A stretch of 64,000 bases of DNA from Marsupella aquatica. Its lineage: Eukaryota; Plantae; Marchantiophyta. Location of the stretch: contig OZ316895.1 of NCBI GenBank assembly GCA_973895155.1, forward strand, positions 13,565,186-13,629,185, written 5' to 3'. Every line of letters starts with the position of its first letter. Positions within the stretch are counted from its first letter, which is position 1. The notes under the pieces were generated by a model. The model was not told where the DNA came from, searched no databases, and saw nothing but the letters and a program-made list of their open reading frames with translations. The position numbers were made by a program, and so were the translations under genes. Shown here one piece after another: positions 9,639 through 64,000 of the stretch.

Positions 9639-9894
9639 AGCTCCGCCAAAACTAGCCGTGCCCAACATCCCTCTTTTGATTGCGATCCCCTCTCTCATCA
9701 TAACCTTTTTATCAGGATAAACAGGAGAATGCACTAGGCAGAGAGCAGAATGCATTCCCCTGATGAACTCAAATATAAAATAATGCCCTCCGCAACTTGG
9801 ATGATGTAATTTCTGTGGACTTGACATAAAGCTGGAAACTTTGGTCATTAAATCTGTTGCAACTCTGCAATGGCAAAGTATTCAAAGTGCTCCT

Positions 9895-39856: not shown

Positions 39857-39882
39857 ATTTCCAGCAACACGAGCAATACCTC

Positions 39883-40266
39883 CTGCCAACATCCTGCTAT
39901 GCTCGACAATTCACACACAGCACTCATTAGCATCGGCCACCCTGCTATAAACTAGTAGCAGCTACACTCTACTCACCAATCCAAAGCTTCCTAGTTGCTG
40001 ATGATGGCTGCCAACATCCTGCTACGCTCGACAATTCACACACAGCACTCATTAGCATCGGCCACCCTGCTATAAACTACTGTAGTAGCAGCTACACTCT
40101 ACTCACCAATCCAAAGCTTCCTAGTTGCTGATGATGGCTGCCCACATCCTGCTGCGCTCGATAATTCGCACACAACACTCATTATTAGCATCGGCCACCC
40201 TGGTGTAAACTAGTAGCAGCTGCACTCTACCCACCAATCCAAAGCTTCATAGTTGTGGATGATGGC
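39883..40266. repeat. About 125-130 bp tandem repeat, 3 copies, abutting the ataxin-10 start
   Basis: ctgccaacatcctgcta.gctcgacaattcacacacagcactcattagcatcggccaccctg...gatgatggct at 39883, 40008 and 40138. Confidence 0.92.
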
Positions 40267-40862
40267 TTTTAGCGTTTCCACACTGTCATGTAAAAGTTTT
40301 TTTGTTTTTGTTTTTTTCACTGGTAGACCCCCTTATGGAAAAGTTTGTTTAATCAACCCCCTCAATACTTTTCCCCAATCTGGACCATTGATGGACCTTT
40401 GGGTCTCAGATCTGGACCATTGATAGACCTCAGGGGGTCGATCAAATAACAAGTTTCATTTTGGGGGTCGATCAAGCAAATACCTCCTCTCGAGTGGCTT
40501 CTGATCATAGGGTTTTTCACAGTGTTATGTAAAAGCAGTTTTGTTTTTATATCACTGGCCTCCTCTCCAGTGGCTTATGGTCATAGTGTTTTTCACAGTG
40601 TAAGTACAAGCTTTTTTGTTTTTTATCACTAGCCTCTACAGTTGCTTATGGTCAGTGTTATGTAAAATCTTTTTTGTGTTTAATCACTAGCCTCTACAGT
40701 TGCTTATGGTAACCTCTCTCTGTGTATTGTTTACTGAAACGAGCACATACATTGAGTGCCCCTCTCTATACTGAGTTGAGTACATACTTTGAGTGCCATC
40801 TCTCTCAGGGATTTGTTTCCTGAATTGATCACATAAAGAACCTGGCCTGTCACATCACAGAG

Positions 40863-40914: not shown

Positions 40915-42552
40915 TCAACGAAGTTACATGCCTATTAGATGTATAACGAAGGTCACAATGGCTTGACAAAGTTATTGGACTACTACATGTGTCAAGAAGA
41001 TGGTTGCACTACTCAGTCTGCAGATCAAGACCATGTTTCAGACATACCTAGTCGCATGTCATTTTCCAAATATTCTTGAAAAACCTAGAGTTAGCTGGCA
41101 TTGAGTTGAAGAGAGTGGTGCAGCATGGAAGAAGAATCTTTCTCGAGGATTGACTTGTTCCTCACATCATTACATGTGTCAACGAATGCTTCTACAATGT
41201 GTTAATTGCAGCTCACCCCCCTTTGGAGCCAAATTGGCTAATTAGAGAGTGACACGGGGTGGATTCACACCTGGAAAAAGAGGAAGTTTTCACCACACAT
41301 TAGTGTCTTCTCTATCTTTTAATTGTATAATGAATCCAAGACCACTCAAGAAGCACCATAAAAATATTTATACAACCATGTAAACACTTAGCAGGTAAGG
41401 ATGCCAAAGCGGATACCCTCATGCATTACCAATTTGAATGTACTAAACCCAAGCAGCCCATGACTATCCAGAAACTAAACTTGGTCGCAGGATTTTCGGC
41501 ATTTTGGAACAATATATACAGTGAAGTTGAACAAATTAATACTAGAACCGCCTCTTCATTTGAAATCCTTTAGGGGGATCATCGCTCAAGGTTCCTAAAT
41601 TTTGATTGGACAAGATCTGGAAGTTAGAAGTCACAATTTGAACCCCGGACCTCTCTGTTCCCAGCTAGTAGTTTTGACAAGCAGGGTTAATGGTAACTCA
41701 AGGCACAACTAAAAGGATGTGGACACAGACCTTTTTTGTCCTCCCTTGTGAACCTTCATACGGGGCTTATTTGGGTCCCAGCTAATGAGTTCATTTGTGC
41801 AAAGGCAAATAAAGGACAATGTAATTGTTGTGACGAACTGGGCACCATCATATAGAGACACCAGATCCTTATGTACTCCCGTATGTAATGGGCAAAGAAA
41901 TGGAATTTGGTGTGGATAAGGCCTTGTCACATCATTCTAGGTAGTGTTAGAGTGTATTGTACTATCTAGATCCGTATGTTTAGTATGTGTGCTATATGAG
42001 CCGATAAGGTTCCATCAGGTTTGTGTGAGAGGGTGCTTCTCACTTGTGAGGCATTGAAAGGTCATCTTTCAATGTTGAGCCTTGGAGAGAGAGGAGCTTG
42101 AGTGGCTATGGTGGTTGTGAGTTCTGCTTGTGTAACGTGGATTCCTTGAGTAGTGCAAGGTGCGTTGGCTTGACATACGTGTGTGATCGGATCGGTGCGG
42201 GATCGATGGGGTATTGTTGACCGGGATCGTTGTGCCGATTGTATGGAGATTACATTGAAAGATCAGGCATCGGACTCTGCTGTTGTTGGACAGAGTTTTG
42301 ATTTTCAGTTTGATTGTGTTTGACAACGGTTCGTGGTATCTCGGATCGTGCATCGTATTGCTTGATTGGATCGCCGATCGAGTGCGGTGCAGGAGTGGGA
42401 GAGGCAACTCGTGGTTACTCGGGACGAGGGGCGTGAGGGCGGAGCAGGAGCGGGCGGGCCAGCAAGCAAGCAAGCCAGCTTGCTGGGACGTGAGGAGTAG
42501 TTTGCAAGCTGCTGATTTTGGAGCGGCCAATTTGGTGCATAACTACAAGTGA

Positions 42553-42853
42553 GAGGACTCAATGACCAGTTCTCCTCGTCATCAGGTGGTTGCACCTTTG
42601 TTGTGGGATATGGACGAGATGTATGGGGCTACAAAGGGCCCACGACGATACTCTGGTGTAATTGGCACAATTGATCTGGATGACTTCATCCAGAAGTTTG
42701 ATACATGGTGCGATATGCAGACATTGCGTAACGCCACGTTGTTTACCCCTTTCATGGCATGGAAGGGATTATTTCAGCATTTGGAGGGGCCACCCATGGA
42801 TGACTACCATGAGTTTCGGAAGGCTCATTTGGTTGAGATTGAGGCATGGAGGC
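42553..42853 (+). pseudogene. 5' gag fragment of the DNMT-Gypsy family
   Basis: Near-identical to about 50037-50338 (MDEMYGATKGPRRYSG..DDFIQ.FDTWC..AWKGLFQHLEG). Confidence 0.9.
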
Positions 42854-43167
42854 TGTCGTGCGCATACACATCGCTACACAACATACATCGCTTGTCACAT
42901 ACATCCAAACATAGTCACACTGCCACATCACAAACACAAGAGAATGGAATACAAGTGGAACTCATGTCCACACATGTCCAAAACCCACAATCGCCCCCAT
43001 AGTTGGGAGTAAGGTCCCCTAACTCTAGCTAGCCATGAGTTCTACAAGGTTGATATACACCTTTTTAGGTGTGAAGATTAGGAGGCCGGGTGCAAGTGAG
43101 CCCCATCGATCACCTACCTGCAATCCATATCTGCCAAGAGAACACAAATGATAACTAGTCGGCTTCA

Positions 43168-43320
43168 CCGACACTAAGGACACAACCATGATCTACTAGG
43201 AATCACCTGCAATGGTGGTGTCAAACATGACATGTGCCATTCTCTAGAACACTTATCACAAATCAACATAGTAGCTGCTCCCTGAGTAGATCCACACAAC
43301 ATACATTTCAAGCCAGCACA
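43168..43320 (-). pseudogene. PHD finger at the integrase C-terminus
   Basis: C4HC3 pattern CMLC..LICDKCSREWHMSCLTPPL..IP...WLCP*C; a TAG at 43174-43176 precedes the last Cys, then R-stop. Confidence 0.88.
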
Positions 43321-43644
43321 AACATGTGCCAAGCTTGGATCTACTGTACCATCAATGTTGGGAATGTGACACGGTGCACAATTGCGCACATGATCCTCCC
43401 AAACCATACCATCGCGTCCCTCCAACATCAGGACACCAGAAGGCAACACTTCACGCACACGTAAGATTGTCCGGCCTGCGGTCACATCAAGTGTTGTGGG
43501 TGCTGTCTGCTGCAAATAAACATAATCACCAGGATGAAATCGTCGAATGCTTGCACGGTAACCTCCTCCACAAATAGTGGCATACCTCAAAGTATCACGA
43601 TGTTGGGCAATGGCAAGGTTATCAAAAGCCATGGGCATCACTCT

Positions 43645-44706
43645 CTAAAATACCCATGCTCTCTCTGAACACACCTTGACCCAAACATCAGGATCATCCA
43701 AGTTCACAACTGGTGCAACATCACGACGAATAGCTGCTGGCAAATCTGGCTCTCTACCATAGAGCAAACAGTAAGGTGAGAAGGATGCAAGTGATGCTTG
43801 CCGACTGAAACGGTAGCCCATAGCTAACCAAGGTAGCTGGAGATCCCAATCTCCCAGATGATCAACCTGCAAGCCATACTTACGCAATCCTCTCTTCACA
43901 GTTTGCACAACTCTCTCAGCTAATCTATCTGCCTCAAGATGATCACGAGAGGTAGTACGATGATCAATCAAAGCTTGTTCACACAAACTCTCAAACTCTC
44001 CACGGAACTCAATTCCCTTATCAGTCAACACCTCAACTGGTGCTCCAAAATGACTGAGTACGCGATCCAAAAATGTAGCAGCAACTCCTCCACTAGCTTT
44101 ATCTGGCAACACCACTAGCTCAATCCACTTGGAGAAGCGCTCCACCATGACCAAAACATACCAATTATGGCGTTGGATAAGAGGTAATGGACCAGCAAAA
44201 TCCAAACTCCAACGATATCCCAAACCCATGATCGGTAACGGGTGCAACTGGGGAGTGGGAGCATTAAATGATGCTCTCACTCTATCGCATACCACACACT
44301 TAGCTATCAACTGCTGGACATGAGTGTGCATACCACGCCACCAATATTGTGTCTGCAGCAAGCTATAAGTGCGCTTCACACCAAAGTGACCCAACTCCTC
44401 ATGTGCATGTCGCACCAAATATACTCGTTGTGATGGTTTTGGTACCACCAACACCCTACCATCATGCAGTACTCTCAAAAGATGGTTTCCCTCCCATCGA
44501 AACCTCTTGGCTCTTTGTAGAACCCTGTCACGTTCTTTGGCATCAACACTGCCAACAATAGAACCACTGTGCAGATATTCCAACACTCTCACATCATTGT
44601 GAATATCTTGTTGTCCAAAAGTTACCTCACCAACATCCACATCTGAAGACTCATCATCCACTCCATCCAATGAGGTAGAGTCCACAGATCCACTGTATGC
44701 TGGCAC
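43645..44706 (-). pseudogene. Gypsy integrase (copy A)
   Basis: HAHEELGHFG..YWWRGM..CVVC, WSLDFAGP, LTDKG.EF, AERVVQTVK, SPYCLLYGREP. Confidence 0.92.
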
Positions 44707-45659
44707 CCAACAAAGAAAGGCAGATGCATGTCATCCTAGCACCATCTCCTTATCTGACTCATCATGCCATCTGGCTCCAGTCTCATCCTGCTGACTGGTA
44801 CATGGATTGCGGCTTAATCCATCTGCATCTAAGTTCACTTTTCCAGGCCTATGCACCACCTGGAAATTATACTCCTGTAACAACAATGCCCATCGTGCAA
44901 GCTTCCCTGTAAGCTTGTCAGACTCCATTAACCACTTAAGAGGCTGATGATTAGTGATCAAGGTGAAGGGGTTACCAAACAAGTAGCAACGAAAGTGTGC
45001 AACAGCCCACACTGCTGCCAAACACTCTCCCTCATAAGAGCTATACTTAGCCTCTACTGAATTGTTTGATCTACTGGCATAAGCCACAACAAACTCATTC
45101 CCCTCATCATCCTTCTGAGTCAGCACTGCTCCAAGTCCTACTCCACTCCAATCAGTGTGTAGCTGAAATGGTTTGCCTGAACGGTATCTCCATGAGCTCT
45201 CTCCATGTCACTGTAACGGTATATATGGCCTACGAAAGATTGGCGCATAACTAGCCAATTCAATCTGAATACCAGGACCCTTTAATGTCCCCAAATCTTT
45301 CATGCTAAATGCAAAACAATTTCAGTAACTCTTCAGGAATCGATGCATGCGACGTTTCTCCTTCCCTGTCAACTTAGGGCCAAGCTGTGGTTCCCAACTC
45401 TCCACCAAATCCCTAATATCTCTTTGTAGGGTAGAAGAGATAGCCAATGATTGCTATTTAGCAGTAGATTGAGCAGTCCCTTCCTGCTCAACAATCTATC
45501 CAGCCTTGGCCAATCCTGCCATAGGTCCATGGACTGTCTGCTCGCCCCCAGCTGTGGTCAATACTGTCTTAGTGGACCGCAAGCTCACCAAGGGACAATC
45601 AGTAATTCCAGTAGAGCGCATCCGCAACTGTTCAGCTACTCCCAAGCTGATAATCCAAG

Positions 45660-46591
45660 TCAAACAATTCAGGTCCATTGCTTGACCAAGAACCTGGCGC
45701 CGCAAACCCTCTGACAGAGAGGCAACTGCAGTGGTGCCAGTCAAAAATCCCATAGCACGCTCTCTCTCATCAGCAGTAGGTTCCACTAACTGCTGGAGAG
45801 CTGTGTCCCACACAAGTCCAGGGCCACCTACTCTGAATGCATATGAAGTAGAGTGGCTTACAAGAGTGGGTAATGCACAACGTGGGCACCCAACTACATT
45901 GACCATTGCCAATGGAGGTCTATCAGGTTGGGTCACATCCTGTGCACGACGTCCTGAATCCAAAATATCATCCACCACTAAGGCTGGTGAGCGTGGAATG
46001 TTGTCAAATGCGCACTTCAGCACCTCACATGGGATCAAATTAGTCCACCACAAGTGTGGAAGATGTGCACGAGAACCCGCACGTGCAACATCCAATAACA
46101 TAGCAGGTCCAATCCAAGACCTTACCTGGTGAACACTGGCAACAATCCGACTACGATCATCATCTAACAATAGCACATTCTCCAAAATGTATGTTGGAGA
46201 CTGTGTCTGATGTAGCTGGAGATGACGCAGCACCCGTAACATCTCCCAAAACAATGCAGAGCGTGGATCATGAAGTCCATGCCCAACGCCAGCTCTAGAT
46301 TGGCCCTAACATGGCCAACCAGCAATCACCAAATCAATGGGGCCAACACGATGCAGATGATCTGCCCCCAGCAATGAAATATCAGCAGATAGTGCATGCT
46401 GATAACCATGAACAGCATCCACTGGCAGCAACTATGGATATCTATCCACCAACATAGCCACATGTCGCAAATGAGACCCTTTGTGCTGTCTCATCTGACT
46501 CCACATACAAATAACGACGCACAATAATTCCTGCCTGAAGAATAGCAGCCAATCCAGTGCTAATCCCACCAAAAAGATCCAACAAACAAAT
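45660..46591 (-). pseudogene. DNMT3-like C5 cytosine methyltransferase domain (copy A)
   Basis: LLDLFGGISTG (I), YVESD (II), DLVIAGWPC*G (IV; CAG>TAG at 46306-46308), YILENV (VI), SRAHLPHLWWTN (VIII), ERERAMGF (IX), RRQVLGQAMD (X). Confidence 0.9.
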
Positions 46592-48799
46592 ACCCTCTGG
46601 TGGATACTGCCAAGCAATAGGAGTGGTATCCAATGGTGAAAGAGTCACAGGTCCATCTGCAAGAGGCTGTTCTGCTCCTGACTGTGGTGTAAAAGCATGA
46701 CGCCATGCATCATGTACCAATCGTGCTGCTGTCTATGGCAAGGCCTATGTAGTGCCCCACACTGGTGGCACAACACTGCCAACAGGTAATCCTCGCATGA
46801 TGTGCTCCTTATGAGACTCCTCCAATGGTGGAACATATGCTGCATGCGCATTACCCTCAATCAAATCATCAGGTCCAACAATTAGACCATTGAATGCTGC
46901 CAAAGACAATGGTGTGGATTTAGGGCCTCCCATAGGTCCACTAAATCTCACTGGCAATTTTCTCAATCAAGCATCTCCTGACTGCCAATCAGGTCTATAT
47001 GACACTGATTCCTCCCAAAAATCAAGAATAAATCCCATGGGTAGAGCACTGTACATCCCACCAACACATCATATGACTCTGCCTTAGTCAGAATAGCTCG
47101 CGCCTATATCTGTGAGCTATCTATGATATGACCTTCCTGAATCCTCAAATCAAGAGGTCTCCTGGTAATGTGTTGTGTAGGTGTAGGTCCCCCCAATGAA
47201 GTCTGAATGGGAAAGGGACAATCCTCCAAATCCTCTGGACGCAATCCCAATCCACGTATGGCAGACTTTCCCAACATCAAGGGCTGAGCACCAGTATCCA
47301 GTAACACCCTCTCTGGCTGGTATACTGCTCCAGAAGGCCCAACTAATCGGAAGATACCACTCCGATTATCCAATGACAACACTAGGTTTAAACCTAGTCC
47401 TCTCAAATGCAGGGCATGCTGGTAAATCCACCAACCTCGCTGCTGCTGCATGCCATGTCTCACTAGTAGTAGTAGGTGGCATGGTCTTCACTACATCAAC
47501 ACTACAAGTTGCTTCTGCATGGGAAGCAACCACTGGAGTGTCCTCACATAGTGTAGCTGCCAATCTGAACACTTCTGCAGGACCAACTTCCAAGTTCAGC
47601 ATGTCTGTTGCTGAAAATAATGGGGCGCGTACCATGGCAATAGCCGCCCCCAGCAAGGTACTTGTCATCCCTGCTGCATCACTACCTGATTCTGCCAACT
47701 TACCCACGTTAGGGTTTGTCCGAACCGGGTTCATAGAGGCAGTCTGAACTGTCTCTGACAATGTAAAAGACTGAGGAAGCTTTGTCTGCCGACGTGCATT
47801 CCCCCTCTATGGATCTAACTCCACTACTGCTCCTCGGGGCTCAAGAGCTTTGGCTGCCCCACGTGTCAAAGCTGCTGATGCATCAATATGTGCAGTGCCA
47901 CACATGAATCCCATGGTGGCAAGGTCTCCATCAGCTCCATAAGATGTGGAAGGACCATGGGATGTGGAAGGTCCATAGGATGTTGATGCCCCATCACCAG
48001 AAGTAGGTCTCACCTGGGAACTAGCCATGGCAGCTAGCTATTGCTCCAATTGAGCAATCTTAGCATCCTTTGGATCTATGGTTACAGCAGGGACAGCATC
48101 ACCTCCATGTCTCCCTGCATGTGGCATGCCATGACCACGTCCACCACCTCTACCTCCTCCTCCTCTTCCCTGATCATGTGTACGGGATCCTCCCCTTCAT
48201 AACTCAGGGTGGAATGAGAAACACCTATCCTTGGTGTGTCCAGGAGCTCCATAGTGATCACACTATCGCTGATCAGGCAATGATGCTCCCCCTGATCCTC
48301 TATGATCTGGGCAATATCTCTGTGCATGATCCCCACCACAGGTCCAACATCCTGACCGCTGTCTAGCATAAGAGGGCACAGGTCTCTGACTGGTAGACTC
48401 TCGTGCAGTAGGCTTCTCCCTCTGGCTCTTTCATGCAATAGGTTGTGGTGTGGATGTAGATGCAGCCTTTGGTGCTTCCTTGGCAAATCCGAAAGTCACC
48501 ACCTTCTCATTCACCATATTGAGCTCAATGCGCTCAGAAAGGGTAAAAACAACTGCTAATGTGGGATCTGCATCCCTAAGCAGAGTGACATCTCTCACTC
48601 TACGTCACAATTCTCTGTCCAAAATTGCATACCAAAACTGGACTGCCTGAGCCTCTGTCACTCCCTTAGTGACAGTGATCAATTTGCGCATACGAGTGTA
48701 TGCCTCACGTAGACTTTCTCTAGTCTTGCGCTGGAACTCCTGGTGACCCTTCAACTTATTAGTTCTCACACCCTGATAGTCACAATCACACCGGTAGGA

Positions 48800-51700
48800 T
48801 CGTTGGTTCTATTTAAGTACTTTGTTGCTATTTGATCTGGTTCTGGCCAAGCTTGAACGTTGTTGGATTTGGATCTGGTCTAGATCTGGATCTGGATCTG
48901 GAAAGAGATGGCCGAAGGTTGCTGCTTGTATCGCACTGCTATTCTGTGGACAGATCTGTTAGAATTTTGAGTGCTTGCAGCATTTTATTGTCAAGGGACG
49001 CTCGCGAAATGTCCCAAAACCATGCACGATAGGTTTGCAGAGGTCGAGAGCCATCGACGTTGCCGTTGTTGTGAAGGAAATTGCTGCTTTCGAGTGGCAA
49101 ATATTGCCATTTCTGAGCCCGACGATTTCTGTTTTGTATACACACACAACTGTGCGCGCATAAGGCGACATGTGAGGTCACCCATCCCGAAAGTGCTCCC
49201 AACCGAGAGCGCAAAGTCACCCATTGCGAGCGCAAGCAGGCGCGAGGTCGAGGTTACCCATCCCAGGGCTATTCCGGGTCGTGAGCGCGAGGGGAGGCAC
49301 AAGGTCGAGCGCGAGGAGGTCACCCATCCCGGGGTTATTCCCAGCCGCAAGCGCTTAAACTGGCAAGTTCTCATCCCACCTTGTGTACACACAATTTTTC
49401 ACAATTTGTTGTTTAGATTCAAGCGCCAAGGGGCTTTATACACTTTCCGATTTGCTTAGAGCCTTGTTTCAGGCCAAATCAGAGGCTCTTTAGAAGTTTT
49501 TGATAGTTCTGAGTTCATCTAAATACACAGATTGAACCAATTGTGCATGGTTTCTCATCTATAACATTGGGACATCATGAAGCCTATTATGAAGGCCTTT
49601 CATTGAACATTATGAATATTTGTTTGATCAATGTGTGATCACTCTTGGTGTGAAGAGTTAGTGTTTGATTATTCTTGTTGATTGGATCCTCTCCACACTT
49701 ATTTCCTGTTTATGCACCATGTTGGTTCGGTGTGGGCGCTTGATTCCATAGGAGTGATCCGGGTTTGCAACTGGATATTCTAGTGTGCTATGTATTTCTT
49801 TCCTGGTGATGTTGGAGTGATGCCCAACACACCAAGGTGAGTGCTTGTGGTGCTGACAGGGATAGATTGTCCTTAGGGTTAGCACATAGATTAGGTTAGG
49901 GTTGGTCACCACGGATTCTTCTGGTGCTACTGGATTACCCGATGGACGACGGACTGGTTTCACTCGGAGTGGGGCACAGTTTCGGCCAGCGGCATTGGTA
50001 GCAGTCAGTAGTGCAGCTTCAAATAGTGATTCTGATGAGGACTCAGTGACCAGTTCTCCTCATCATCAGGTGGTTGCACCTTTGTTGTGGGATATGGACG
50101 AGATGTACGGGGCTACAAAGGGCCCACGACGATACTCTGGTGCAATTGGCACAATTGATCTGGATGACTTCATCCAGGAGTTTGATACGTGGTGCGATAT
50201 GCAGACATTGCGTAACGCCACATTGTTTACCCCTTTCATGGCATGGAAGGGATTATTTCAGCATTTGGAGGGGCCACCCATGGATGACTACCATGAGTTT
50301 TGGAAGGCTCATTTGGTTAAGATTGAGGCATGGAGGCAGCATTGGTCGCCTAATTACGTGTCCATCACCTATGGCACTAGTGCGGTTGCCCAACCCATTG
50401 CCACATCTGCTGCTTCTTCTAGCAGCACTAGCCAGAGTGGCACACCATCCACCAGCAGCATCCACCGCTACTCCTACCGGTGTGATTGTGACAGGAACTG
50501 GAGTTGCGCCAACATTTAACCCTGTGGTGGAATTCTTTGAGGTACTGAAGCAGAACTATCAGGGTGTAAGAACTGATAAGTTGAAGGGTCTTCAGGAGTT
50601 CCAGCACAAGACTGGAGAGAGTCTACGTGAGGCATACACTCGTATGTGCAGATTGATCATTGTCACCAAGGGAGTGACAGAGGCTCAGGCAGTCCAGTTT
50701 TGGTATGCAATTTTGGACAGAGAATTGCGACGTAGAGTGAGAGATGTCACTCTGCTTAGGGATGCAGATCCCACATTAGCAGTTGTTTTTACCCTTTCTG
50801 AGCGCATTGAGCTCAATATGGTGAATGAGAAGGTGGTGACTTTCGGATTTGCCAAGGAAGCACCAAAGGCTGCATCCACATCCACACCACAACCTTTTGC
50901 ACGGAAGAGCCAGAGGGAGAAGCCTACTGCACGAGATTCTATCAGCTAGAGACCTGTGCCCTCTTATGCTGGACAGCAGTCAGGATGTTGGACCTGTGGT
51001 GGGGATCATGCACAGAGATATTGCCTAGATCATAGAGGATCAGGGGGAGCATCATTGCCTGATCAGCGACAGTGTGATCACTGTGGAGCTCTTGGACACA
51101 CCAAGGATAGGTGTTTCTCATTCCATCCTGAGTTACGGAGAGGAGGATCCCGTACACATGATCAAGGAAGAGGAGGAGGAGGTAGAGGCGGTGGACGTGG
51201 TCGTGGCATGCCACATGCAGGGAGACATGGAGGTGACATTGCCCCTGCTGTAACCATAGATCCAAAGGATGCTAAGATTGCTCAATTGGAGCAACAGCTA
51301 GCTGCCATGGCTAGTTCCCAGATGAGACCTACTTCTGGTGATGGGGCATCAACATCCTATGGACCTTCCACATCCCATGATCCTTCCACATCTTATGGAG
51401 CTGATGGAGACCTTGCCACCATGGGATTCATGTGTGGCACTGCACATATTGATGCATCAGCAGCTTTGACACTTGGGGCAGCCAAAGCTCTTGAGCCCCG
51501 AGGAGCAGTAGTGGAGTTAGATCCATAGAGGGGGGATGCACGTCGGCAGACAAAGCTTCCTCAGTCTTTTACATTGTCAGAGACAGTTCAGACTGCCTCT
51601 ATGAACCCGGTTCGAACAAACCCTAACATGGGTAAGTTGGCAGAATCAGGTAGTGATGCAGCAGGGATGACAAGTACCTTGCTGGGGGCGGCTATTGCCA

Positions 51701-53641
51701 TGGTACGCGCCCCATTATTTTCAGCGACAGACATGCTGAACTTGGGAGTTGGTCCTGCATAAGTGTTCAGATTGGCAGCTACACTATGTGAGGACACTCC
51801 AGTGGTTGCTTCCCATGCAGAAGCAACTTGTAGTGTTGATGTAGTGAAGACCATGCCACCTACTACTACTAGTGAGACATGGCATGCAGCAGCAGCGAGG
51901 TTGGTGGATTTACCAGCACGCCCTGCATTTAAGAGAACTAGGTTTAAACCTAGTGTTGTGTCATTGGATAATCGGAGTGGTATCTTCCGATTAGTTGGGC
52001 CTTCTGGAGTAGTATACCAGCCAGAGAGGGTGTTACTGGATACTGGTGCTCAGCCCTTGATGTTGGGAAAGTCTGCCATACGTGGATTGGGATTGCGTCC
52101 AGAGGATTTGGAGGATTGTCCCTTTCCCATTCAGACTTCATTGGGGGGACCTACACCTACACAACACATTACCAGGAGACCTCTTGATTTGAGGATTCAG
52201 GAAGGTCATACCATAGATAGCTCACAGATACAGGCGCAAGCTATTCTGACTAAGGCAGAGTCATATGATGTGTTGGTGGGATGTACAGTGCTCTACCCCA
52301 TGGGATTTATTCTTGATTTTTGGGAGGAATCAGTGTCATATAGACCTGATTGGCAGTCAGGAGATGCTTGATTGAGAAAATTAATTGCCAGTGAGATTTA
52401 GTGGACCTATGGGAGGCCTAAATCTACACCATTGTCTTTGGCAGCATTCAGTGGTCTAATTGCTGGACCTGATGATTTGATTGAGGGTAATGCGCATGCA
52501 ACAGATGTTCCACCATTGGAGGAGTCTCATAAGGAGCACATCATGCGAGGATTACCTGTTGGTAGTGTTGTGCCACTAGTGTGGGGCACTGCACAGGCCT
52601 TGCCACAGACAACAGCATGATTGGTACATGATGCATGGCGTCATGCTTTTACACCACAGTCAGGAGCAGAACAGCCTCTTGCAGATGGACCTGTGACTCT
52701 TTCACCATTGGATACCACTCCTATTGCTTGGCAGTATCCACTAGAGGGTATTTGTTTGTTGGATCTTTTTGGTGGGATTAGCACTGGATTGGCTACTGTT
52801 CTTCAGGCAGGAATTATTGTGCGTCGTTATTTGTATGTGGAGTCAGATGAGACAGCACGGAGGGTCTCATTGTGACATGTGGCTATGTTGGTGGATAGAT
52901 ATCCATAGTTGCTGCCAGTGGATGTTGTTTGTGGTTATCAGCATGCACTACCTACTGATATTTCATTGCTGGGGGCAGATCATCTACATTGTGTTGGCCC
53001 CATTAATTTGGTGATTACTGGTTGGCCATGTCAGGGCCAATCTAGAGCTGGCGTTGGGCATGGACTTCATGATCCACGCTCTGCATTGTTTTGGGAGATG
53101 TTACGGGTGCTGCGTCATCTCCAGCTACATCAGACACAATCTCCAGCATACATTTTGGAGAATGTGCCATTGTTAGGTGATGATCATAGTCAGCTTGTTG
53201 CCAGTGTTCACCAGATGAGGTCTTGGATTGGACCTGCTGTGTTATTGGATGCTGCACGTGTGGGTTCTCGTGCACATCGTCCACGCTTGTGGTGGACCAA
53301 TTTGATCCCATGTGAGGTGTTGAAGTGCGCATTTAACAACATTCCACGCTCACCAGCCTTAGTGGTGGATGATATTTTGGATCCAGGGCGTCGTGCACAG
53401 GGTATGACCCAACCTGATAGACCTCCATTGGCAATGGTCAATGCAATTGGGCGCCCACGTTGTGCATTACCCACTCTTGTAAGCCACTCTACTTCATATG
53501 CATTCAGAGTAGGTGGCCCTGGACTTGTGTGGGACACAGCTCTCCAGCAGTTAGTGGAACCTACTGCTGATGAGAGAGAGCGTGCTATGGGATTTTTGAC
53601 TGGCACCACTGCAGTTGCCTCTCTGTCAGAGGGTTTGCGGC
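48800..53641 (+). mobile_element. Ty3/Gypsy copy B: LTR/leader-gag-PR-DNMT, cut by another Gypsy insertion
   Basis: Non-coding leader with a candidate LTR end tgctgaca at 49858; gag from about 49.9 kb with knuckles CWTCGGDHAQRYC and CDHCGALGHTKDRC; protease LLDTGAQ (about 52035); MTase 52750-53641. Similarity to copy A ends abruptly at 53641. Confidence 0.9.
52750..53641 (+). pseudogene. DNMT3-like C5 cytosine methyltransferase domain (copy B)
   Basis: LLDLFGGISTG, YVESD, ITGWPCQGQS (catalytic PCQ at 53026-53034), GLHDPRSALFWEM, YILENV, AHRPRLWWTN, ERERAMGF. In-frame stops near 52873 and 52906. Confidence 0.92.
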
Positions 53642-54562
53642 TGTGGTGCGTCCCATGGCTCCCTAAACCCAAGAAACCCCCCAGCTCAAGCCGATTCCCG
53701 CAGGTTTCGTGCTTGGCGAGGCCGTTTCCGCGGCTTAGCGGCATGGGACGCTGCTAACCTTCTACTACTACTATTAACATTTTACACACATATACTGGAC
53801 AGATCCTTCATCGGGTCATGAGATACGTAGCCGGCCTAATATAGGCCTTCCCCTGTCTTCCCCTGTCTTCCCCTCCGTCTTGTTAGGTATGTTTGGATTC
53901 CGCCGCCGGAATGATCCCCAATAGGCTTGGTTAAGCCGCTAAGACCTCTCTTAGCTCGACACATCCAACTCTCACTCCCCTGCTTACTTTCCTTCCTTCT
54001 GTTGATGTGGGCACTCTTCACACAAGTTAATGCGACACACAAATAGCAAAATGACTCATTCTGACTGAGTCATACCATGCACTTGCCATACAAACAGTAC
54101 ATCTCATACACAAGTTCTGCGAACTAAGCCGTGAGGCCAACTCTATTCAGCTCTTAGGCATGAGGAAACATGAATATACACAAGGGTCACTGTATGACTA
54201 ACCGAGAGCTTCTCGTACTACTTGATCCCAGCCCGGCTGGTGCAAACTAAAAACTTGCTAAAGAAGAGGCCCTGAGCTCCCCGCTGCCCAGGTACTTATC
54301 CTGGTAGTGGATCCGCCATTCTTTGCATCGTAAGCCTAATCTACTTAACAGTAATCTACTTGCCCGAATCTACCTACGTACAGCAAGGCAGGAGCACAAG
54401 TGTTGCTCCTACCAGTGGGACCGCAATCCCACTAAGCTAAGTGTCAGGGCCGCTCCTGGTTCTGATCCTAATCCTAAACGTGGAGATCCGCGCCCGCCCT
54501 GCCCACTCACGCCTCCTCCCTCCACGTCCGCCCTCCCTAAAAGGAACGGCGCCCTTGCACCG

Positions 54563-57500
54563 TCACGACACCGGTGGTGGATCCTTAATGGACGCCCCCA
54601 ACGCTTCCTCCTCAGCCACTACCGTAGGCTCATTCCCTGACAGATTACCTGCCCTTGACTGAGTCAACTCTCCATCGGCCTGACTGGGTCCACCATCGGC
54701 GTCAGCATCGGCTCGAGAATCGGTTACGGCCTCAGCCTCGGCTACGGTCTCCCCGGCCTGCTCAAGAGGCGGATCTGGAATACTGGCCTCCTTACTGAGT
54801 AGTTCGGCTTGGGCCGCACCATCCCTACCTGTGATCATAGCGGGATCTATTGCCGTATTCATGTCGGAGGATGGTGCTGGTTCTACCTCTTTGGTCACCA
54901 CGGCTTGTGGAGTCGGATTACTCCTTGACCCTGAAGGTTTCCGCTTTTTCTTCTTTTCTGGTTCGGCAGCTGGTCCCTTCCCCTTCCCACTTACCTCCGG
55001 CACTGGTGCAGTTGGCGCGGCTTTTTCTTCGGCCAGTACCACTCCTGGTAACTTGGTTGCCCCAATTGGAGTTGGGCCTGATGAAGACAAGCACCTAAAT
55101 ATTGCGGCTTGTTTCTTCAGCCGCTCCGTTTGGTTGTCGGCCCGCCGCTGGAGGTTCTCCATCTTCCTCGTGATTTCCTCCAACTCCTCTTGGGTCTCAT
55201 CCAGGTCCTTGCGTGCCTCCTCTAGTTCCTTCTGGGCTTCCTCCCGTTCTTGTTTCAAGGTAGTCCTCTCCTCCTGGGTTGCTTTTAGCTCCTTGTCGAG
55301 CTCTGCAATGATGACAGACTCCATCTGGTTCATCTTGGCGTAAGTCTGTTCGAGCATCTCGTCCTTCTCCCTTAGGTCGGCCTTGAAGCTGGCCGTCAGG
55401 GACGCAAGCTCCTGCTGCAGCGCCATAATCCCTTGATAGGATTTCCCTAACTCGGCCTCCTTCTGCTCAAGGGCTCCGCGGATTTTCTCGAGCTCCCCTT
55501 TCAACGCCCATTCCTTTCTTTGGGTCTCCGCCATGGCCCGGCTGTTGGCTGTTATGTGGGCCTCCTCTGTATTCTTCAGCTCTTGCTTCCACTTCTCCCT
55601 CTCTTTGATCGTGTCGGCCAACTCTTCCTGCGTCTGAGTCAGTTTATCCTTGATATTCTGATTATCAGCCTGCGCGGTGTCCAACTGCCCCTGCATGATG
55701 TTCAGCTCATGTCGTTTAATCCGCAGTTCATCTTGGGCTTTCTTGGCCGCCCTTAGATCTTCAATCTCGGCTTCCATCCTCCTAAGCCGCCGAATGACCT
55801 CGTCCTTCTTGCTTCTCTCTAAAGCCACCGCTTCTTCTAATTGGTGCTTCTCCAACTGCTCCCTATGGAAAAAGGGTCCTACTTCCAACTCCTCTCCAAA
55901 GATGCCGAGCGCAAGTTCCCCACACATCTCACCATACTCCATGGCTCTATTCTTAGCGTAGGTGGAGTAAGTAGAAGTGATCGGCATCGCCCATCGCGGC
56001 CTCTGCTCCCAAGCCGTCCTGCGGATCTCTTCAATCGTGGCTAGAGGTTTGCTTCCTTTTTTGGCTAGCCGCCTGATGTCCTCCGGCCAATCTCCTCCTG
56101 GTAAATCCTTTTCCTTAGCCAGGGCGGCCTCCTCCTCCTGCTTGATTCGCTCCTGAAATTCCTGCACCATCTGTTTTATGCCGTCGAAGCTCGGGGGAGC
56201 AACATCTGGTGGGGGAGACTCAGGGCTACTCTGCTGGTTGGGGTCCCCTCGCACTACCCTTGGAAGTGTGGGGACAAACCGGCCACAGGTCCTTACTCCT
56301 GGAACGTGATGGTCCGACCCATAGCCGGAATTATCATGGCTGCAGTCCTCCACTGCCTCCTCTACCTCTTGGACGTCCGGCTTCTCCCTCTCCTCTTCGT
56401 CGGTAGGAGCTTCAGGCAATTCTGCCTCAGATTCGGAGCTTGAGGTTCCCACGTACATTCGAACACCTGGCTTGGATTCCGGCCTGATTCTCTCCTTGTC
56501 TCCAGCAAAGGGGTTTTCTCTTGTGAGTCGGTATAGGCCTACCTCTGTAGTAGTGTCCTGCATTGTTGCCGTTGCCGTTGTTGTTGCCGATGCCGATTTC
56601 TTTTCTTTCTCCAGTAGTTTCAGCAGACTCTGCATGCCTGGTTGCTGCATCGGCAAGTCTTCCTTCCTGGGCCTAAACACCTGCTCGATCGTAGGACTAA
56701 CAGGTGGTTGAGGCTTCTCAGCCAATGGCCTCGGCGTTGGAGCTTCCTCGGGTGCCCTTACCTGCAGGGGAAGTACCGGGGCAAAAGTCTGACCTCTGGC
56801 ATACCGGCACAACAGCGGCATGTGATAGCCCAGCCACGACACGCTCCCCATGCCGATTACCTGCTGCTCCTCCTTTAAGATCTTCTTCAATTGGTTGAGG
56901 AGGTACCCGTTGTAGTCCCAGCTTGGGTCTGGCCTTTCTGCCAGATAGACCTGTGCCTTGCCGATCTCTGCCCTCGGCAAGTTACAATGCATGGTCACCC
57001 GCAAGAAGTCGATCATCTCTCCTATGTGCGGGTTGGTGCAGGTGTTCCGGAAGAAGCCATTCTTCGTTGATGGCCCGGGGAACGACCGGAACTCCTTGTC
57101 AGGCAAGGTCTTCCTGGTATCAACTTTGGTCTTATTGCCTATCGGCAGGCCAAACACTTCGGCAATTACCTTGGGAGTAAGATAGAAATCCTTCCCATAT
57201 ATCCTCGTGCAATTGGTCTCGGGTTCCCATGACCCCACGAATTCTAATAGGTCTGACTCCGGTACCTCCGGCTTCAGCCATGGTAATCTTACAAAGGCCT
57301 CCAAGCCGGATCCGACCATGAAGCCTTGGTATCTCTTGGTCTGCATGGCCGTAAAGCATGCATCCTCCTCCCGTGCAAAATGTAGTTGCACCTCCACCGG
57401 TAGGGTTGCCGCCCAGCCTTTCCAGGTGTCATCCCTGGTTGGAATGGCCTTGATGGGATCGACCTCCTCCTCTTTGGCTTCTCCCTGCCTCCTGCTCTGC

Positions 57501-58195
57501 TGCTCGGCTGGCTTCTTTGGTGCCGCCGACCTCGTTCTTTTTGCCGGGGTGGCTTCATCGTTGACGGCTCCCTTCCTCTTCATCTCTGCTGCCGTGGAGG
57601 TTTCTCCTAGCACCGTTGCCTGGGTCCACCTTTCCGTGCTACCCTTTAATTCCCAGTGTATGTCGTTGTAGTTCTTGATGGCCTCTCGGATGCCGACGAC
57701 ACTGTCTTTGCAAAACAGAAGATCGTCGAGTTGATTGGAAGTAGGCGTCCACAGGAACTCGTCCTTGATGAGTTCGCCTCCTAAGAAAGCCGTCTTCTGC
57801 AGCTCCCACAATCGAGCGAGCTCCTGCCGTTCTCGAGCTGCCCTTTCTGATTCCTCGTCCTCGTAAGTCTTGATGTACTCAGTTGCCCGTTCGAACAGGC
57901 ATCCCCAGAAATGTGCCGCTTGATTGACGTTGCTCATACCCTCCTTAGGTCGATCGTCGGTATCTACTCTCTTCCCGAGTGCTTGCCTAAGCAGCTGACA
58001 GTAGTTGGCCTCCCGTAGTCGTCTGCCTAGTTCGTGCTCGCAAATGAGCCACCATCTCCTGCAAGCGCTCCTTACCCCTCCCCTCTGCCGGTCCTTCTTC
58101 CCGTTGATCCTTCCTAGCCGCCGACACTTAACGCGCCCTAACCCTAATCGGGTTTTCACCCTCAGCCTTACCTCCGGCCTCTGCCCGGGTTCCAT
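54563..58195 (-). CDS. Extra retroelement ORF3 (1210 aa): basic N-terminus, transposon-protein-like domain, long coiled coil
   Basis: Uninterrupted 3.6-kb ORF starting about 100 nt after the integrase stop. LLEFVGSW..RIYGKDFYLTPKVIAEVFGLP resembles Athila/Tat extra-ORF domains; E/K/Q/L heptads over about 55130-55860; KKKKRK near the C-terminus. Confidence 0.8.
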   Translation of the reverse strand: MEPGQRPEVRLRVKTRLGLGRVKCRRLGRINGKKDRQRGGVRSACRRWWLICEHELGRRLREANYCQLLRQALGKRVDTDDRPKEGMSNVNQAAHFWGCLFERATEYIKTYEDEESERAARERQELARLWELQKTAFLGGELIKDEFLWTPTSNQLDDLLFCKDSVVGIREAIKNYNDIHWELKGSTERWTQATVLGETSTAAEMKRKGAVNDEATPAKRTRSAAPKKPAEQQSRRQGEAKEEEVDPIKAIPTRDDTWKGWAATLPVEVQLHFAREEDACFTAMQTKRYQGFMVGSGLEAFVRLPWLKPEVPESDLLEFVGSWEPETNCTRIYGKDFYLTPKVIAEVFGLPIGNKTKVDTRKTLPDKEFRSFPGPSTKNGFFRNTCTNPHIGEMIDFLRVTMHCNLPRAEIGKAQVYLAERPDPSWDYNGYLLNQLKKILKEEQQVIGMGSVSWLGYHMPLLCRYARGQTFAPVLPLQVRAPEEAPTPRPLAEKPQPPVSPTIEQVFRPRKEDLPMQQPGMQSLLKLLEKEKKSASATTTATATMQDTTTEVGLYRLTRENPFAGDKERIRPESKPGVRMYVGTSSSESEAELPEAPTDEEEREKPDVQEVEEAVEDCSHDNSGYGSDHHVPGVRTCGRFVPTLPRVVRGDPNQQSSPESPPPDVAPPSFDGIKQMVQEFQERIKQEEEAALAKEKDLPGGDWPEDIRRLAKKGSKPLATIEEIRRTAWEQRPRWAMPITSTYSTYAKNRAMEYGEMCGELALGIFGEELEVGPFFHREQLEKHQLEEAVALERSKKDEVIRRLRRMEAEIEDLRAAKKAQDELRIKRHELNIMQGQLDTAQADNQNIKDKLTQTQEELADTIKEREKWKQELKNTEEAHITANSRAMAETQRKEWALKGELEKIRGALEQKEAELGKSYQGIMALQQELASLTASFKADLREKDEMLEQTYAKMNQMESVIIAELDKELKATQEERTTLKQEREEAQKELEEARKDLDETQEELEEITRKMENLQRRADNQTERLKKQAAIFRCLSSSGPTPIGATKLPGVVLAEEKAAPTAPVPEVSGKGKGPAAEPEKKKKRKPSGSRSNPTPQAVVTKEVEPAPSSDMNTAIDPAMITGRDGAAQAELLSKEASIPDPPLEQAGETVAEAEAVTDSRADADADGGPSQADGELTQSRAGNLSGNEPTVVAEEEALGASIKDPPPVS

Positions 58196-58298
58196 GGTTG
58201 CCCCTAATTGTTTATATTTTCCTTGTTTTGTCCCTATACTAAGGTGTTCCTAGGGTGCCTTCCTGCTTTACCCACTTAACCAGCCGAGTGATTCCTGT

Positions 58299-59748
58299 CT
58301 AGGCATCACATAGCTCCCCACTTAATTGTGAAGCGTCCTCGCGAACAACTTCATCTTCGTCCATATAGTATTTCTTGAGGCGGTCATAATGGATGCGAAC
58401 TGGATATACCTCTCCCGTAATGTTGGCCAATTGTACGGAGCCATTGGGGAACATCATGGTTACTCTAAAGGGTCCTAACCAGCGAGTGTAAAGCTTTCCT
58501 GGAAACCTACTATACCTACTGTCATAAAGTAGCACAAGATCACCGGTATGAATACTAACTACTTTTAACCTTTTATCATACTGCTGCTTCATGATATTCT
58601 GTCTATATTCTACTCTCTCGGCTGAAATCATTCTCGCTTCCTCTAAAGCTTCTAACCTATATTCTCGCTCCTTTAGGCTCTCCTCCGCTGAGGCTCTTTC
58701 CTCAATTGTAACTTGAAATGTCGGTATCTCAAGTTGCATGGGTACCAGGGCTTCTTGTCCAAAGGTTAAGAAGAAGGGTGTATGACCGGTAGTGGATTTA
58801 TAGGCAAGATTGTAAGCAAAAACAGCAGCAAACAATTTATCATCCCAATCGAGTTTGTTCTGAGCTACTGTCTTGTTCAATATCTTTCCTATAATTCCGT
58901 TTGCTCGTTCTGTCAACCCGTTTGCCTTTGGATGGTAGGGAGTAGTAGGCCTATGTTTAACTAAATACTGCTCATTTAAACGACTAATTATATCATTCAA
59001 AAAATGGGTTCCTCTATCACTAACTAATTCTAGGGGTGCTCCATACCTGGTGAAGATCTGCTCATACATGAATCTAGCCGTAGTAATTGCATCATCCTTC
59101 GTTGTTGGTCTGGCCTCTACCCATTTAGTTGCATAATCCGTAGCCAGGATTATGTACTTGTTCCGTCGAGGGTGGGTCAGTGGTTTCAGAGGTCCAATGT
59201 AATCAATACCCCACTTCTCGAATGGTGCCAGAGGTAGAATAGGGTGCAGTGGATGCCTGGTGGACGCCCTTGGTCCTCCCGCTCATTGACAAGGATCGCA
59301 TTGTTTGATAAACTGATAGACATCTTTGTGCAAGGTGGGCCACTAGTAACCGGCATTTAATATCTTCTTAGACGTGGTTATTGGGGCAAAATGTCCTCCG
59401 GCCTCCTCTCCATGCATGGCCCGTAGGACTCGTTTTACCTCTCTCTTTTCCAAACATCTTTGAATCGTGCCGTTGATTCCATGCTTGTGCAGTATGCCTT
59501 TAATGCACTGATACTGTCTGACCTTCCGCACAAAGACTGCGGCTTGCTCTCGGCTTAATCCTGGTTGTAATCTGGAAGTGCTGAGAAATTGTAAAATCTC
59601 AGGGTACCATGTACCAGCTATTTCCACAACGAATAGCTCCTCGTCGGGGAATCGATCATCGATGCAATCCGTGGCAGGTTTACCTGTGATCCTTGAAAAG
59701 AAGTCGGCATTGGCATGTAACTTTCCCGGCTTGATCCTCAGCTCATAG
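58299..59748 (-). pseudogene. Gypsy integrase with in-frame stops
   Basis: HGEEAGGHF..KILNAGY*WPT, PFEKWGIDYIGP, DYATKWVEA, SDRGTHF, YHPKANGLTER, WLGPF. Confidence 0.92.
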
Positions 59749-63815: not shown

Positions 63816-64000
63816 CTTCTATGGCAAAGCATTCACCAACCATTGAAGTTGCATACCTTCAGATGCATTGGTCTTTGTACGTCTTACCAGTTTCTGAAAG
63901 CGTTGCAAGAACTTCCTGAAGGATTTGTTCTCCTTGAACCAAAGTTGTCCCAACTTCAGCACTGCTAGTTCTGAAGTTCCAATGGGTCGAAACTCCTTAA

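What the first reader, a model, noticed from the sequence alone, without database searches (positions are those of the whole stretch)
45660..53641. Gypsy retrotransposon family encoding its own DNMT3-like cytosine methyltransferase inside the polyprotein
Seen: in both copies a C5-MTase catalytic domain follows the protease, in linear motif order I-II-IV-VI-VIII-IX (FGGI, ESD, PCQ, ENV, AHRPR, ERERAMGF). Copy A also keeps motif X (RRQVLGQA) and then the start of RT. Known: these signatures resemble DNMT3 (AHRARYFW, EMERVFGF, RQRLLG), and the order is not permuted as in plant DRM. From memory, DNMT-carrying retrotransposons were reported in dinoflagellates and the charophyte Klebsormidium (de Mendoza et al. 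2018); I know of no characterised land-plant family. Inference: the element could methylate its own cDNA or insertion site, for self-silencing or camouflage. Both copies here are pseudogenised.
Basis: partly seen in the sequence, partly recalled or inferred. Interest (0 to 1): 0.92.

Follow-up and report, generated by a model that had tools for sequence, protein, structure and literature searches.

The report
Liverwort retrotransposon packing its own methyltransferase
This likely liverwort genome holds two broken copies of a jumping gene that carries its own DNMT3-type DNA methyltransferase joined to its capsid and protease protein, ahead of a likely leaky stop codon, so it would pack the enzyme in bulk and likely methylate its own new DNA copies.

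Summary
Real. Both copies carry a non-permuted C5 methyltransferase after the protease (PF00145; DNMT3A/B best by sequence and fold). The host is likely a liverwort. The element is no captured fragment. Relatives occur in Marchantia, Calypogeia, Sphagnum, Closterium and a chlorophyte, and the domain is under purifying selection between families (dN/dS 0.10-0.17).

A conserved stop with the plant readthrough context UAG-CAR-YYA separates it from RT-RNaseH-integrase-PHD. Copy A has lost nearly all of RT and its catalytic motifs. Copy B is cut by a nested Gypsy.

Relatives have split repeats A-coding-B-A-B (as stated for Klebsormidium KnitGypsy-Dnmt3), 4-bp target duplications and a likely self-priming site.

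Best reading: a land-plant branch of the Gypsy-DNMT3 kind that likely loads methyltransferase into its particle at Gag level and methylates its cDNA. Activity is untested, and CpG depletion gives no specific support. No land-plant report turned up in my searches. This scan noted the same kind in two moss-like genomes; those notes, as shown, did not mention the stop or the repeat anatomy.

The parts
41921..41924 (+). 4-bp flank GCCT before the 5' repeat; the same 4 bases follow the B repeat end on the minus strand (42850-42853): likely target-site duplication of upstream element E
   Evidence: chance match about 1 in 256; the inversion model is inferred
41925..42254 (+). likely 5' repeat A (TGTCA...CA) of element E
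   Evidence: starts and ends like A of relatives; only patchy alignment to them and no blastn hit; high contig depth
42253..42264 (+). likely self-priming primer-binding site, complementary to a stretch inside repeat A (about 42064-42073); no tRNA-type TGG start
   Evidence: 10-nt complement, 0 of 200 shuffles reach it; flanks printed
42553..42853 (+). end of leader and first ~80 codons of gag (from 42610), 97% identical to 50037-50337
42854..42990 (-). repeat B of copy A, ending in CACGACA (half of the internal palindromic attachment site)
   Evidence: blastn to B repeats of relatives, E down to 3.5e-11
42991..42998 (-). polypurine tract directly before repeat B
   Evidence: same position in L034 and L055
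43168..43311 (-). PHD finger at the C-terminus of integrase (one stop near its end)
   Evidence: PF00628 E 7.6e-10; best PDB matches CHD4, DPF3, KDM5B, PHF21A, UHRF1
43747..44448 (-). integrase (H2C2 finger and core with D, D, E motifs)
44842..45174 (-). RNase H
   Evidence: PF17917 E 4.3e-37
45223..45402 (-). remnant of ORF2 start; about 295 codons including the RT core are missing just downstream
45448..45456 (-). conserved ORF1 stop with type I readthrough context, TAG CAA TCA (UAG-CAR-YYA)
   Evidence: motif definition in PMC3542737
45628..46597 (-). copy A DNMT3-like methyltransferase, motifs I-X; broken by a frameshift near 46470, stops at 46434 and 46308, and loss of both motif VIII arginines
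47038..47316 (-). copy A aspartic protease (frameshifted)
48188..48800 (-). copy A gag remainder (5' part absent here)
48801..50093 (+). leader of copy B (its 5' repeat is not present)
   Evidence: position upstream of gag; repeated in host runs; inferred
50094..51147 (+). copy B gag with CCHC-type knuckles (one frameshift near 50455)
   Evidence: tblastn with Marchantia Mp4g09160
52021..52353 (+). copy B aspartic protease
   Evidence: (below Pfam cut-off)
52744..53641 (+). copy B DNMT3-like methyltransferase, motifs I-IX with catalytic residues intact, two stops (52873, 52906), cut before motif X
53642..54570 (-). likely 3' LTR (TG...CA) of an unrelated Gypsy that interrupts copy B; the rest of copy B would lie beyond the window

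Best explanation
These are two decayed copies of a bryophyte Ty3/Gypsy retrotransposon whose first reading frame encodes Gag, protease and a DNMT3-type cytosine methyltransferase, while RT, RNase H, integrase and a PHD finger are likely made only by readthrough of the UAG-CAR-YYA stop, so the methyltransferase would enter the particle at Gag level and likely methylate the element's own cDNA before insertion. Shown: the domain order, the stop and its context, DNMT3 affinity, purifying selection between families, and split repeats A-coding-B-A-B with 4-bp target duplications in relatives. Inferred steps: (1) a few percent readthrough gives Gag-PR-DNMT far in excess of RT-IN; (2) the protease frees the methyltransferase in the particle, where the cDNA is the double-stranded DNA at hand; (3) reverse transcription self-primes as in Tf1/Tcn1; (4) the true LTR is B+A, and the inserted form is a two-LTR circle opened by integrase at the palindrome CAYGACA-NN-TGTCAY inside the 5' LTR, with loss of NN; (5) the PHD finger likely reads unmethylated H3K4 and steers insertion away from promoters; (6) new copies arrive already methylated, looking like old host repeats and doing less harm.
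For: DNMT3 affinity: a profile of 70 family members scores DNMT3A 100 bits, DRM 62, HhaI 44, DNMT2 27. An AlphaFold model of a naturally intact relative (L025, pLDDT 94.5) matches only DNMT3A/B/C in the 30 rows shown. Family: 89 long homologues, including many Marchantia gene models, Calypogeia, Sphagnum and Closterium. All 80 kept metagenome loci show the order Gag-PR-MT-RT-RH-INT-PHD for the domains they hold (the query was built from this clade). Stop: 31 of 32 anchored junctions have it, 30 followed by CAR, 4 by full CAR-YYA. Background after a stop triplet is 2.9% for CAR and 0.21% for CARYYA. The 9-nt core matches at 7-9 of 9 between the window and three other lineages, while flanks match at only 11-17 of 45. 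L025 has two clean frames (1369 and 1047 codons) separated only by this stop. 47 of 57 PR-MT proteins with motif X end before RT. Selection: MT dN/dS is 0.13 (L025-L027, dS 0.25), 0.17 (L041-L042), 0.12 (L025-L030) and 0.15-0.17 (window vs L012, L014). The catalytic Cys is kept in 72 of 77 loci that cover it and the motif VI Glu in 75 of 79. Ends: B-A-B in 9 loci; none of 28 5' A repeats has B before it; TSD match in 5 of 6 complete elements; priming complement significant in 7 of 8 cases. MT, RT and integrase trees place the window with the Marchantia/Sphagnum-like group. Retrotransposon DNMT3 domains of Symbiodinium methylate CG de novo in yeast (PMC5890265).
Against: No activity, expression or methylation data. 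The Klebsormidium domain showed no activity in yeast (inconclusive by the authors' account). CpG depletion is not specific: window copies 0.31-0.33, a Copia in the window 0.35, the least decayed relatives 0.55-0.70. A third lineage (30 junctions examined, 7 fully open) has no stop, and several other homologues are single frames, so Gag-level dosage is not required for the kind. The largest stop-bearing group reads CAA CCC, not YYA, has UAA in 8 cases and nearly always an ATG two codons on, which allows reinitiation. The 32 junctions come from only 3-4 lineages and from partly redundant contigs. 36 of 80 loci have E in place of P in motif IV. The two B-only relatives with both ends in view lack an exact TSD (L017 none, L026 3 of 4).
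Confidence: 0.6

Rival explanations
1. The methyltransferase is active but works after insertion, on the target site, flanks or older copies in the nucleus, riding with the integration complex and the PHD finger.
For: Writer (DNMT) and reader (PHD) sit in one element. In a chlorophyte-type clade the domain lies between RNase H and integrase. Host DNMT3b of moss methylates heterochromatin de novo (PMC6453930).
Against: In this lineage the stop puts the DNMT with Gag and the PHD with integrase, so they are not a fixed fusion. A large excess fits work inside the particle better (inference).
Confidence: 0.17
2. ORF2 is expressed by reinitiation, an internal promoter or splicing, not by readthrough; the methyltransferase is still a Gag-level product.
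For: ATG at +7 in nearly all of the Sphagnum-like group. Marchantia and Sphagnum gene models join MT to RT by skipping the junction. In Candida Tca2 a gag-pol stop did not follow the TMV readthrough model (PMC2194720).
Against: No ATG at that place in the window, L025 or L030. CAR is kept in 30 of 31 stops while flanks are randomised. ORF2 is always in frame. The gene-model joins differ from each other and look like predictor artefacts.
Confidence: 0.2
3. The domain is kept as a DNA- or RNA-binding or structural part (for example holding the LTR circle) with little catalytic role.
For: No activity for the Klebsormidium domain in yeast; motif IV variant EC in one lineage; MT dN/dS is higher than RT's (0.12-0.17 against 0.04-0.14).
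Against: SAM-binding FxG, catalytic Cys, ENV and motif IX are kept across lineages with saturated synonymous sites.
Confidence: 0.1
4. A host DNMT3 fragment captured once at this locus, or a domesticated host gene.
For: dN/dS between the two window copies is 1.6, and they share three stops.
Against: Same place in the same architecture across liverworts, mosses and Closterium. Congruent trees. Contig depth across the MTase is hundreds- to over a thousand-fold that of the flank in three runs (not a copy number). Target duplications in relatives.
Confidence: 0.01

Closest known systems
KnitGypsy-Dnmt3 of Klebsormidium nitens (de Mendoza et al. 2018, PMC5890265; main text parts 1-5 of 7 read, supplements keyword-searched, figures not seen)
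   Same: Gypsy domain set; intronless, non-permuted Dnmt3-like domain; purifying selection; DIRS-like split repeats (legends of Figs 1 and 4: A-coding-B-A-B).
   Different: Land-plant host. The DNMT ends a Gag-PR frame before a readthrough-type stop, whereas the paper and the authors' review reply place it in the same ORF as RT. PHD is not mentioned in the main text (0 hits). The domain order of Fig. 4c was not visible, and no Klebsormidium sequence was retrieved for a tree.
SymbioDIRS-Dnmt3 of Symbiodinium (same paper)
   Same: Retrotransposon-borne Dnmt3 domain; split repeats; shown to methylate CG de novo in yeast.
   Different: Tyrosine recombinase instead of DDE integrase; unrelated RT; DNMT in Pol.
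EpiLTRs of Cymbomonas and Euglena (bioRxiv 10.64898/2026.05.21.726589; passages and section 8 read)
   Same: LTR elements combining a methyltransferase with a chromatin reader.
   Different: DNMT4-related plus DAM and a chromodomain; the preprint treats streptophyte Gypsy-DNMT3 as a separate acquisition.
PHD-bearing Gypsy-7a_cRei of Chlamydomonas (PMC9940879, section 13 read) and REM1 (recalled; paper not held)
   Same: Gypsy with a PHD finger, proposed to bias insertion.
   Different: No methyltransferase in the listed domains; conventional LTR pair.
Tcn1 / Tf1-Sushi self-priming chromoviruses (PMC6317226, passages read)
   Same: No tRNA PBS; predicted self-priming; found in mosses.
   Different: Chromodomain, ordinary LTRs, no DNMT; RT placement against REXdb lineages not tested here.
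Type I readthrough of tobamoviruses (PMC3542737, passages read)
   Same: UAG-CAR-YYA context between two in-frame ORFs.
   Different: Here it lies in a retrotransposon, after protease and DNMT rather than after gag.

Membership tests
Ty3/Gypsy LTR retrotransposon | Order gag-PR-RT-RH-INT | tested here: met
   RT core deleted in copy A but present in relatives
Ty3/Gypsy LTR retrotransposon | RT and integrase closest to Ty3 | tested here: met
   L025 ORF2 best PDB match Ty3-G Gag-Pol, E 4.4e-98
Ty3/Gypsy LTR retrotransposon | Two identical flanking LTRs | tested here: not met
   split form A-coding-B-A-B instead
Ty3/Gypsy LTR retrotransposon | TG...CA ends, polypurine tract, 4-5 bp TSD | tested here: met
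   5 of 6 complete relatives have a 4-bp TSD; PPT
DNMT3-clade C5 methyltransferase | Motifs I-X in linear order with catalytic Cys, Glu and Arg-x-Arg | tested here: met
   intact in copy B up to motif IX, broken in copy A
DNMT3-clade C5 methyltransferase | Closer to DNMT3 than to DRM, DNMT2 or bacterial and phage enzymes | tested here: met
   best viral fold match weaker
DNMT3-clade C5 methyltransferase | Phylogenetic nesting among host DNMT3 sequences | not tested
   no host DNMT3 protein was retrieved as a usable sequence; tree rooted on phage enzymes only
DNMT3-clade C5 methyltransferase | De novo methylation activity | not testable with these tools
   needs an assay
DRM (plant) | Circularly permuted motifs | tested here: not met
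   linear order
KnitGypsy-Dnmt3 | Gypsy with intronless non-permuted Dnmt3 under purifying selection | tested here: met
KnitGypsy-Dnmt3 | DIRS-like split repeats | tested here: met
   9 relatives with B-A-B; the window copy keeps A and one B only
KnitGypsy-Dnmt3 | DNMT in the same ORF as RT | tested here: not met
   stop between them in the window's lineage; met in a sister lineage
KnitGypsy-Dnmt3 | Monophyly with Klebsormidium elements | tested here: inconclusive
   no Klebsormidium-named hit; Closterium elements fall in the same MT clade (SH 0.83)
DIRS/PAT tyrosine-recombinase elements | Tyrosine recombinase, no TSD | tested here: not met
   DDE integrase and 4-bp TSD
Chromovirus (Tcn1, Chlamyvir) | Chromodomain after integrase | tested here: not met
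   PHD instead; no chromo hit in Pfam scans
Type I stop-codon readthrough | UAG-CAR-YYA between in-frame ORFs | tested here: met
   window, L025, L027, L030; only CAR in the Sphagnum-like group
Type I stop-codon readthrough | Measured readthrough product | not testable with these tools
   needs a reporter or ribosome profiling

The most novel reading that the evidence does not exclude
An ancient green-plant retrotransposon lineage, still present as full-length Gag-PR-DNMT frames in the model Marchantia, packages a DNMT3 enzyme at capsid stoichiometry through a virus-type leaky stop, methylates its cDNA inside the particle, and inserts a two-LTR circle cut at an internal palindrome. This would be the first land-plant transposon that writes its own 5mC, and a DDE integrase working on a circularly permuted LTR. 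Methylation of the CG in the palindrome might even decide which of its two copies is cut.
Probability: 0.35. Interest if true: 0.9.

Novelty: new variant of a known kind. Interest (0 to 1): 0.72.

Why it matters
Why some retrotransposons carry the enzyme that silences them is open: the 2018 paper could not show a role, and its Gypsy domain was inactive in yeast. This family puts the question into Marchantia polymorpha, a genetic model with several 1278-1281 aa Gag-PR-DNMT gene models and existing methylation mutants. The conserved stop gives a sharp prediction about dosage and place of action. The split repeats with true target duplications point to an integration route that I did not find described for Gypsy elements. 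For annotation, these frames inflate DNMT counts in bryophyte genomes, and the split ends would likely be missed by LTR finders that require paired LTRs.

Tried and rejected
No whole genome is held, so copy number and dN/dS within the host were not measured. Run search: no RNA holder listed; this says nothing on expression. Small-share runs, including air metagenomes, were not used. IMG/VR scan: 30 loci, all short weak matches (best E 1e-13), so no close viral donor; the BFVD fold search gave phage and giant-virus enzymes with lower TM-scores than DNMT3. CpG o/e as a sign of self-methylation: rejected as unspecific. No Klebsormidium-named protein. The protein atlas and VIA-align did not answer. 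Papers not held: Yamato 2007 (Marchantia Y chromosome) and REM1. Repbase, Craig's 2021 Chlamydomonas TE work and most subscription papers were not searchable, so an unnoticed database entry or remark is possible. The supplementary figures of PMC5890265 and the supplements of bioRxiv preprints were not seen and may bear on domain order and host range. Literature searches. Passages read without finding a land-plant TE-DNMT: PMC12344493, PMC6453930, PMC10952607, PMC6317226, 10.1101/2021.02.12.428880, 10.1101/2021.11.30.470311. Trees are FastTree with SH supports and weak deep nodes. MT rows were thinned from 241 to 166, RT+RH from 83 to 72, RH+INT from 76 to 65 by identity. Whether a B-only end comes from direct insertion or from B-B recombination could not be settled. 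No complex prediction was run.
Full report
Observation. Translation of 41500-53800 and a self-comparison show an inverted pair, 45699-48780 against 50555-53641, 96.3% identical. Each copy has a protease followed by C5 methyltransferase motifs in linear order. Copy B hits PF00145 above cut-off (E 1.4e-9); copy A's open segment stays below it. Copy B keeps PCQ, ENV and RxR but has two stops and ends before motif X. Copy A has motif X, but also a frameshift, a stop inside motif IV and no motif VIII arginines. Copy A continues into RNase H, integrase and a PHD finger; about 295 codons with the RT core are missing. The copies share three premature stops and differ almost only by transitions (98 of 106), so they derive from one already damaged sequence.

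Host. The neighbouring ataxin-10-like gene has Riccia sorocarpa as best named match (257 bits against 209 for Sphagnum) and groups with it at bootstrap 100. The host is likely a liverwort. In three public runs, contig depth over the methyltransferase is hundreds- to over a thousand-fold that of a flank contig. The tool warns that this is no copy number, but it fits a repeat and not a single captured fragment.

What the enzyme is. The window domain's best solved relatives are DNMT3A, then DNMT3C and B, then HaeIII. A profile of 70 relatives gives DNMT3A 100 bits, DRM 62, HhaI 44 and DNMT2 27. The naturally intact domain of L025 folds with pLDDT 94.5. The 30 Foldseek rows shown are all DNMT3 (TM 0.83 to the target at best); viral matches are weaker. 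I could not place it in a tree with host DNMT3.

The family. A search for long homologues gave 89 proteins, among them many Marchantia polymorpha gene models, Calypogeia fissa, Sphagnum and Closterium. The cluster of Mp4g09160 has 18 members, several of 1278-1281 aa. An HMMER search found 1823 clusters at E 0.001, 119 of them at 1e-30. In all 80 the domains present follow Gag-PR-MT-RT-RH-INT-PHD, apart from hits belonging to neighbouring elements. The methyltransferase tree splits by position: clade I, PR-MT-RT (Closterium, bryophytes, the window; SH 0.83), and clade II, RH-MT-INT (including Hariotina; SH 0.82), sister at 0.96. RT and integrase trees agree on the window's neighbours, with weak deep nodes. 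Nei-Gojobori dN/dS for the domain is 0.10-0.17 between families, including two unsaturated pairs (dS 0.25 and 0.17). It is 0.37-0.93 among dead sibling copies and 1.6 between the two window copies. The domain was therefore maintained in active lineages and decays after insertion.

The stop. Homologous proteins mostly end shortly after motif X: 47 of 57 PR-MT proteins stop before RT, and 4 of the 10 that continue are Marchantia or Sphagnum gene models. On DNA, 31 of 32 anchored junctions have an in-frame stop 14-17 codons before a conserved ORF2 motif. Thirty are followed by CAR. The window, L025, L027 and L030 show full UAG-CAR-YYA, the type I readthrough signal of plant viruses (PMC3542737, passages). 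Background after stop triplets is 2.9% for CAR and 0.21% for CARYYA, and the core is conserved while flanks are at chance identity. L025 has ORF1 (1369 codons), the stop, and ORF2 (1047 codons) with no other break. Against: the junctions represent 3-4 lineages; the largest reads CAA CCC ATG, with UAA in 8; a third lineage has no stop (7 of 30 junctions fully open, the others with scattered breaks). In Candida Tca2 a similar stop did not behave as a TMV-type signal (PMC2194720, passages). Readthrough is likely, not shown.

The ends. Relatives do not have paired LTRs. They have A-coding-PPT-B-NN-A-B: 9 loci show B-A-B, 8 end after one B, and none of 28 5' A repeats has B in front. B ends CAYGACA and A begins TGTCAY, so the inner B-A junction is a palindrome with two central bases, and the outer ends are its two halves without them. 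Five of 6 complete elements have a 4-bp target duplication, each different (L074 read from both outputs; L048 fails). The two B-only elements with both ends in view lack an exact one. Directly after A lies a stretch complementary to a site about 26-33 nt downstream of a TATA-like box in A, significant in 7 of 8 cases. This resembles the self-priming predicted for Tcn1 elements (PMC6317226, passages). My reading (inference): the true LTR is B+A, and the inserted form is a two-LTR circle opened by integrase at the palindrome of the 5' LTR. Why the 5' copy is always the one cut is unexplained.

The locus. A likely A repeat starts at 41925 after GCCT and has its own priming complement; a loose end shows other host copies running from B into a similar sequence. 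Copy A's B repeat ends at 42854 and is followed by GCCT on the minus strand, and a gag start lies at 42553-42853 on the plus strand. The simplest model is one element (41925-48800) whose inside was inverted and partly deleted, followed by copy B, which a second Gypsy interrupts at 53641/53642. This model is inferred.

Mechanism. Shown: anatomy, conservation, DNMT3 affinity. Inferred: Gag-PR-DNMT is the major product and builds the particle, the protease frees the enzyme, and the cDNA is its substrate, so new copies arrive methylated. The PHD finger most resembles those of CHD4, DPF3, KDM5B, PHF21A and UHRF1. That many of these read unmethylated H3K4 is recalled knowledge; it suggests insertion away from promoters, as proposed for the PHD of Chlamydomonas Gypsy-7a (PMC9940879, section 13). 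CpG depletion does not discriminate, since a Copia in the window is as depleted. I put this mechanism at 0.6; the identity of the element is near certain.

Comparison and novelty. De Mendoza et al. 2018 (PMC5890265; parts 1-5 of 7 read; supplement keyword searches) describe KnitGypsy-Dnmt3 with DIRS-like repeats and the DNMT in the RT frame. A 2026 preprint (passages and section 8) refers to it as streptophyte Gypsy-DNMT3 without naming land plants in what I read. The window element works like KnitGypsy-Dnmt3 and probably shares its origin, but differs in ORF layout, and monophyly was not testable. Nine literature searches found no land-plant family, no readthrough report for it and no account of the split-repeat integration; Repbase and many journals were out of reach. 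Two earlier notes of this scan report the same kind in moss-like genomes. A word search for readthrough and split repeats found none. Verdict: new variant of a known kind, interest 0.72.

Noticed in passing
window 53642-64000 (- strand): A second, unrelated Gypsy nested in copy B (gag 61467-63818, RT/RH 59749-61560, integrase 58299-59282). It carries an extra stop-free frame of 1228 codons (54563-58249) between integrase and the 3' LTR, with no Pfam family above cut-off.
   Followed up: partly
window 2969-9642: Copia element with ~330-nt LTRs, 92% alike; used as the CpG control.
   Followed up: partly
window 37527-39910 (- strand): Ataxin-10-like host gene in two long frames; groups with Riccia sorocarpa at bootstrap 100.
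   Followed up: yes
proteins P0046, P0050, P0053, P0058 and others: A large second clade with the same methyltransferase placed between RNase H and integrase (RT-RH-MT-INT-PHD); the one named member is the chlorophyte Hariotina reticulata. The domain has changed place within the lineage.
   Followed up: partly
proteins P0436, P0090: Proteins with Copia-type Pfam domains that also match this methyltransferase family (P0090 from Closterium): a possible capture by Copia elements, or fused gene models.
   Followed up: no
proteins P0072, P0078, P0079, P0080: Frames, three with zinc knuckles, that end 26 residues after motif X; those placed in the tree form a separate basal methyltransferase clade. 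Element type unknown.
   Followed up: no
L041-L080: A lineage without the stop, with motif IV reading EC instead of PC (36 of 80 loci) but the same split repeats.
   Followed up: partly
window 11169-11469, 31989-32630, 39883-40312: Short tandem repeat arrays of 43 to 130 nt.
   Followed up: no
Marchantia gene models: Four of the 15 listed members of the Mp4g09160 cluster lie on the V (male) sex chromosome, two of them full length (1281 aa).
   Followed up: no
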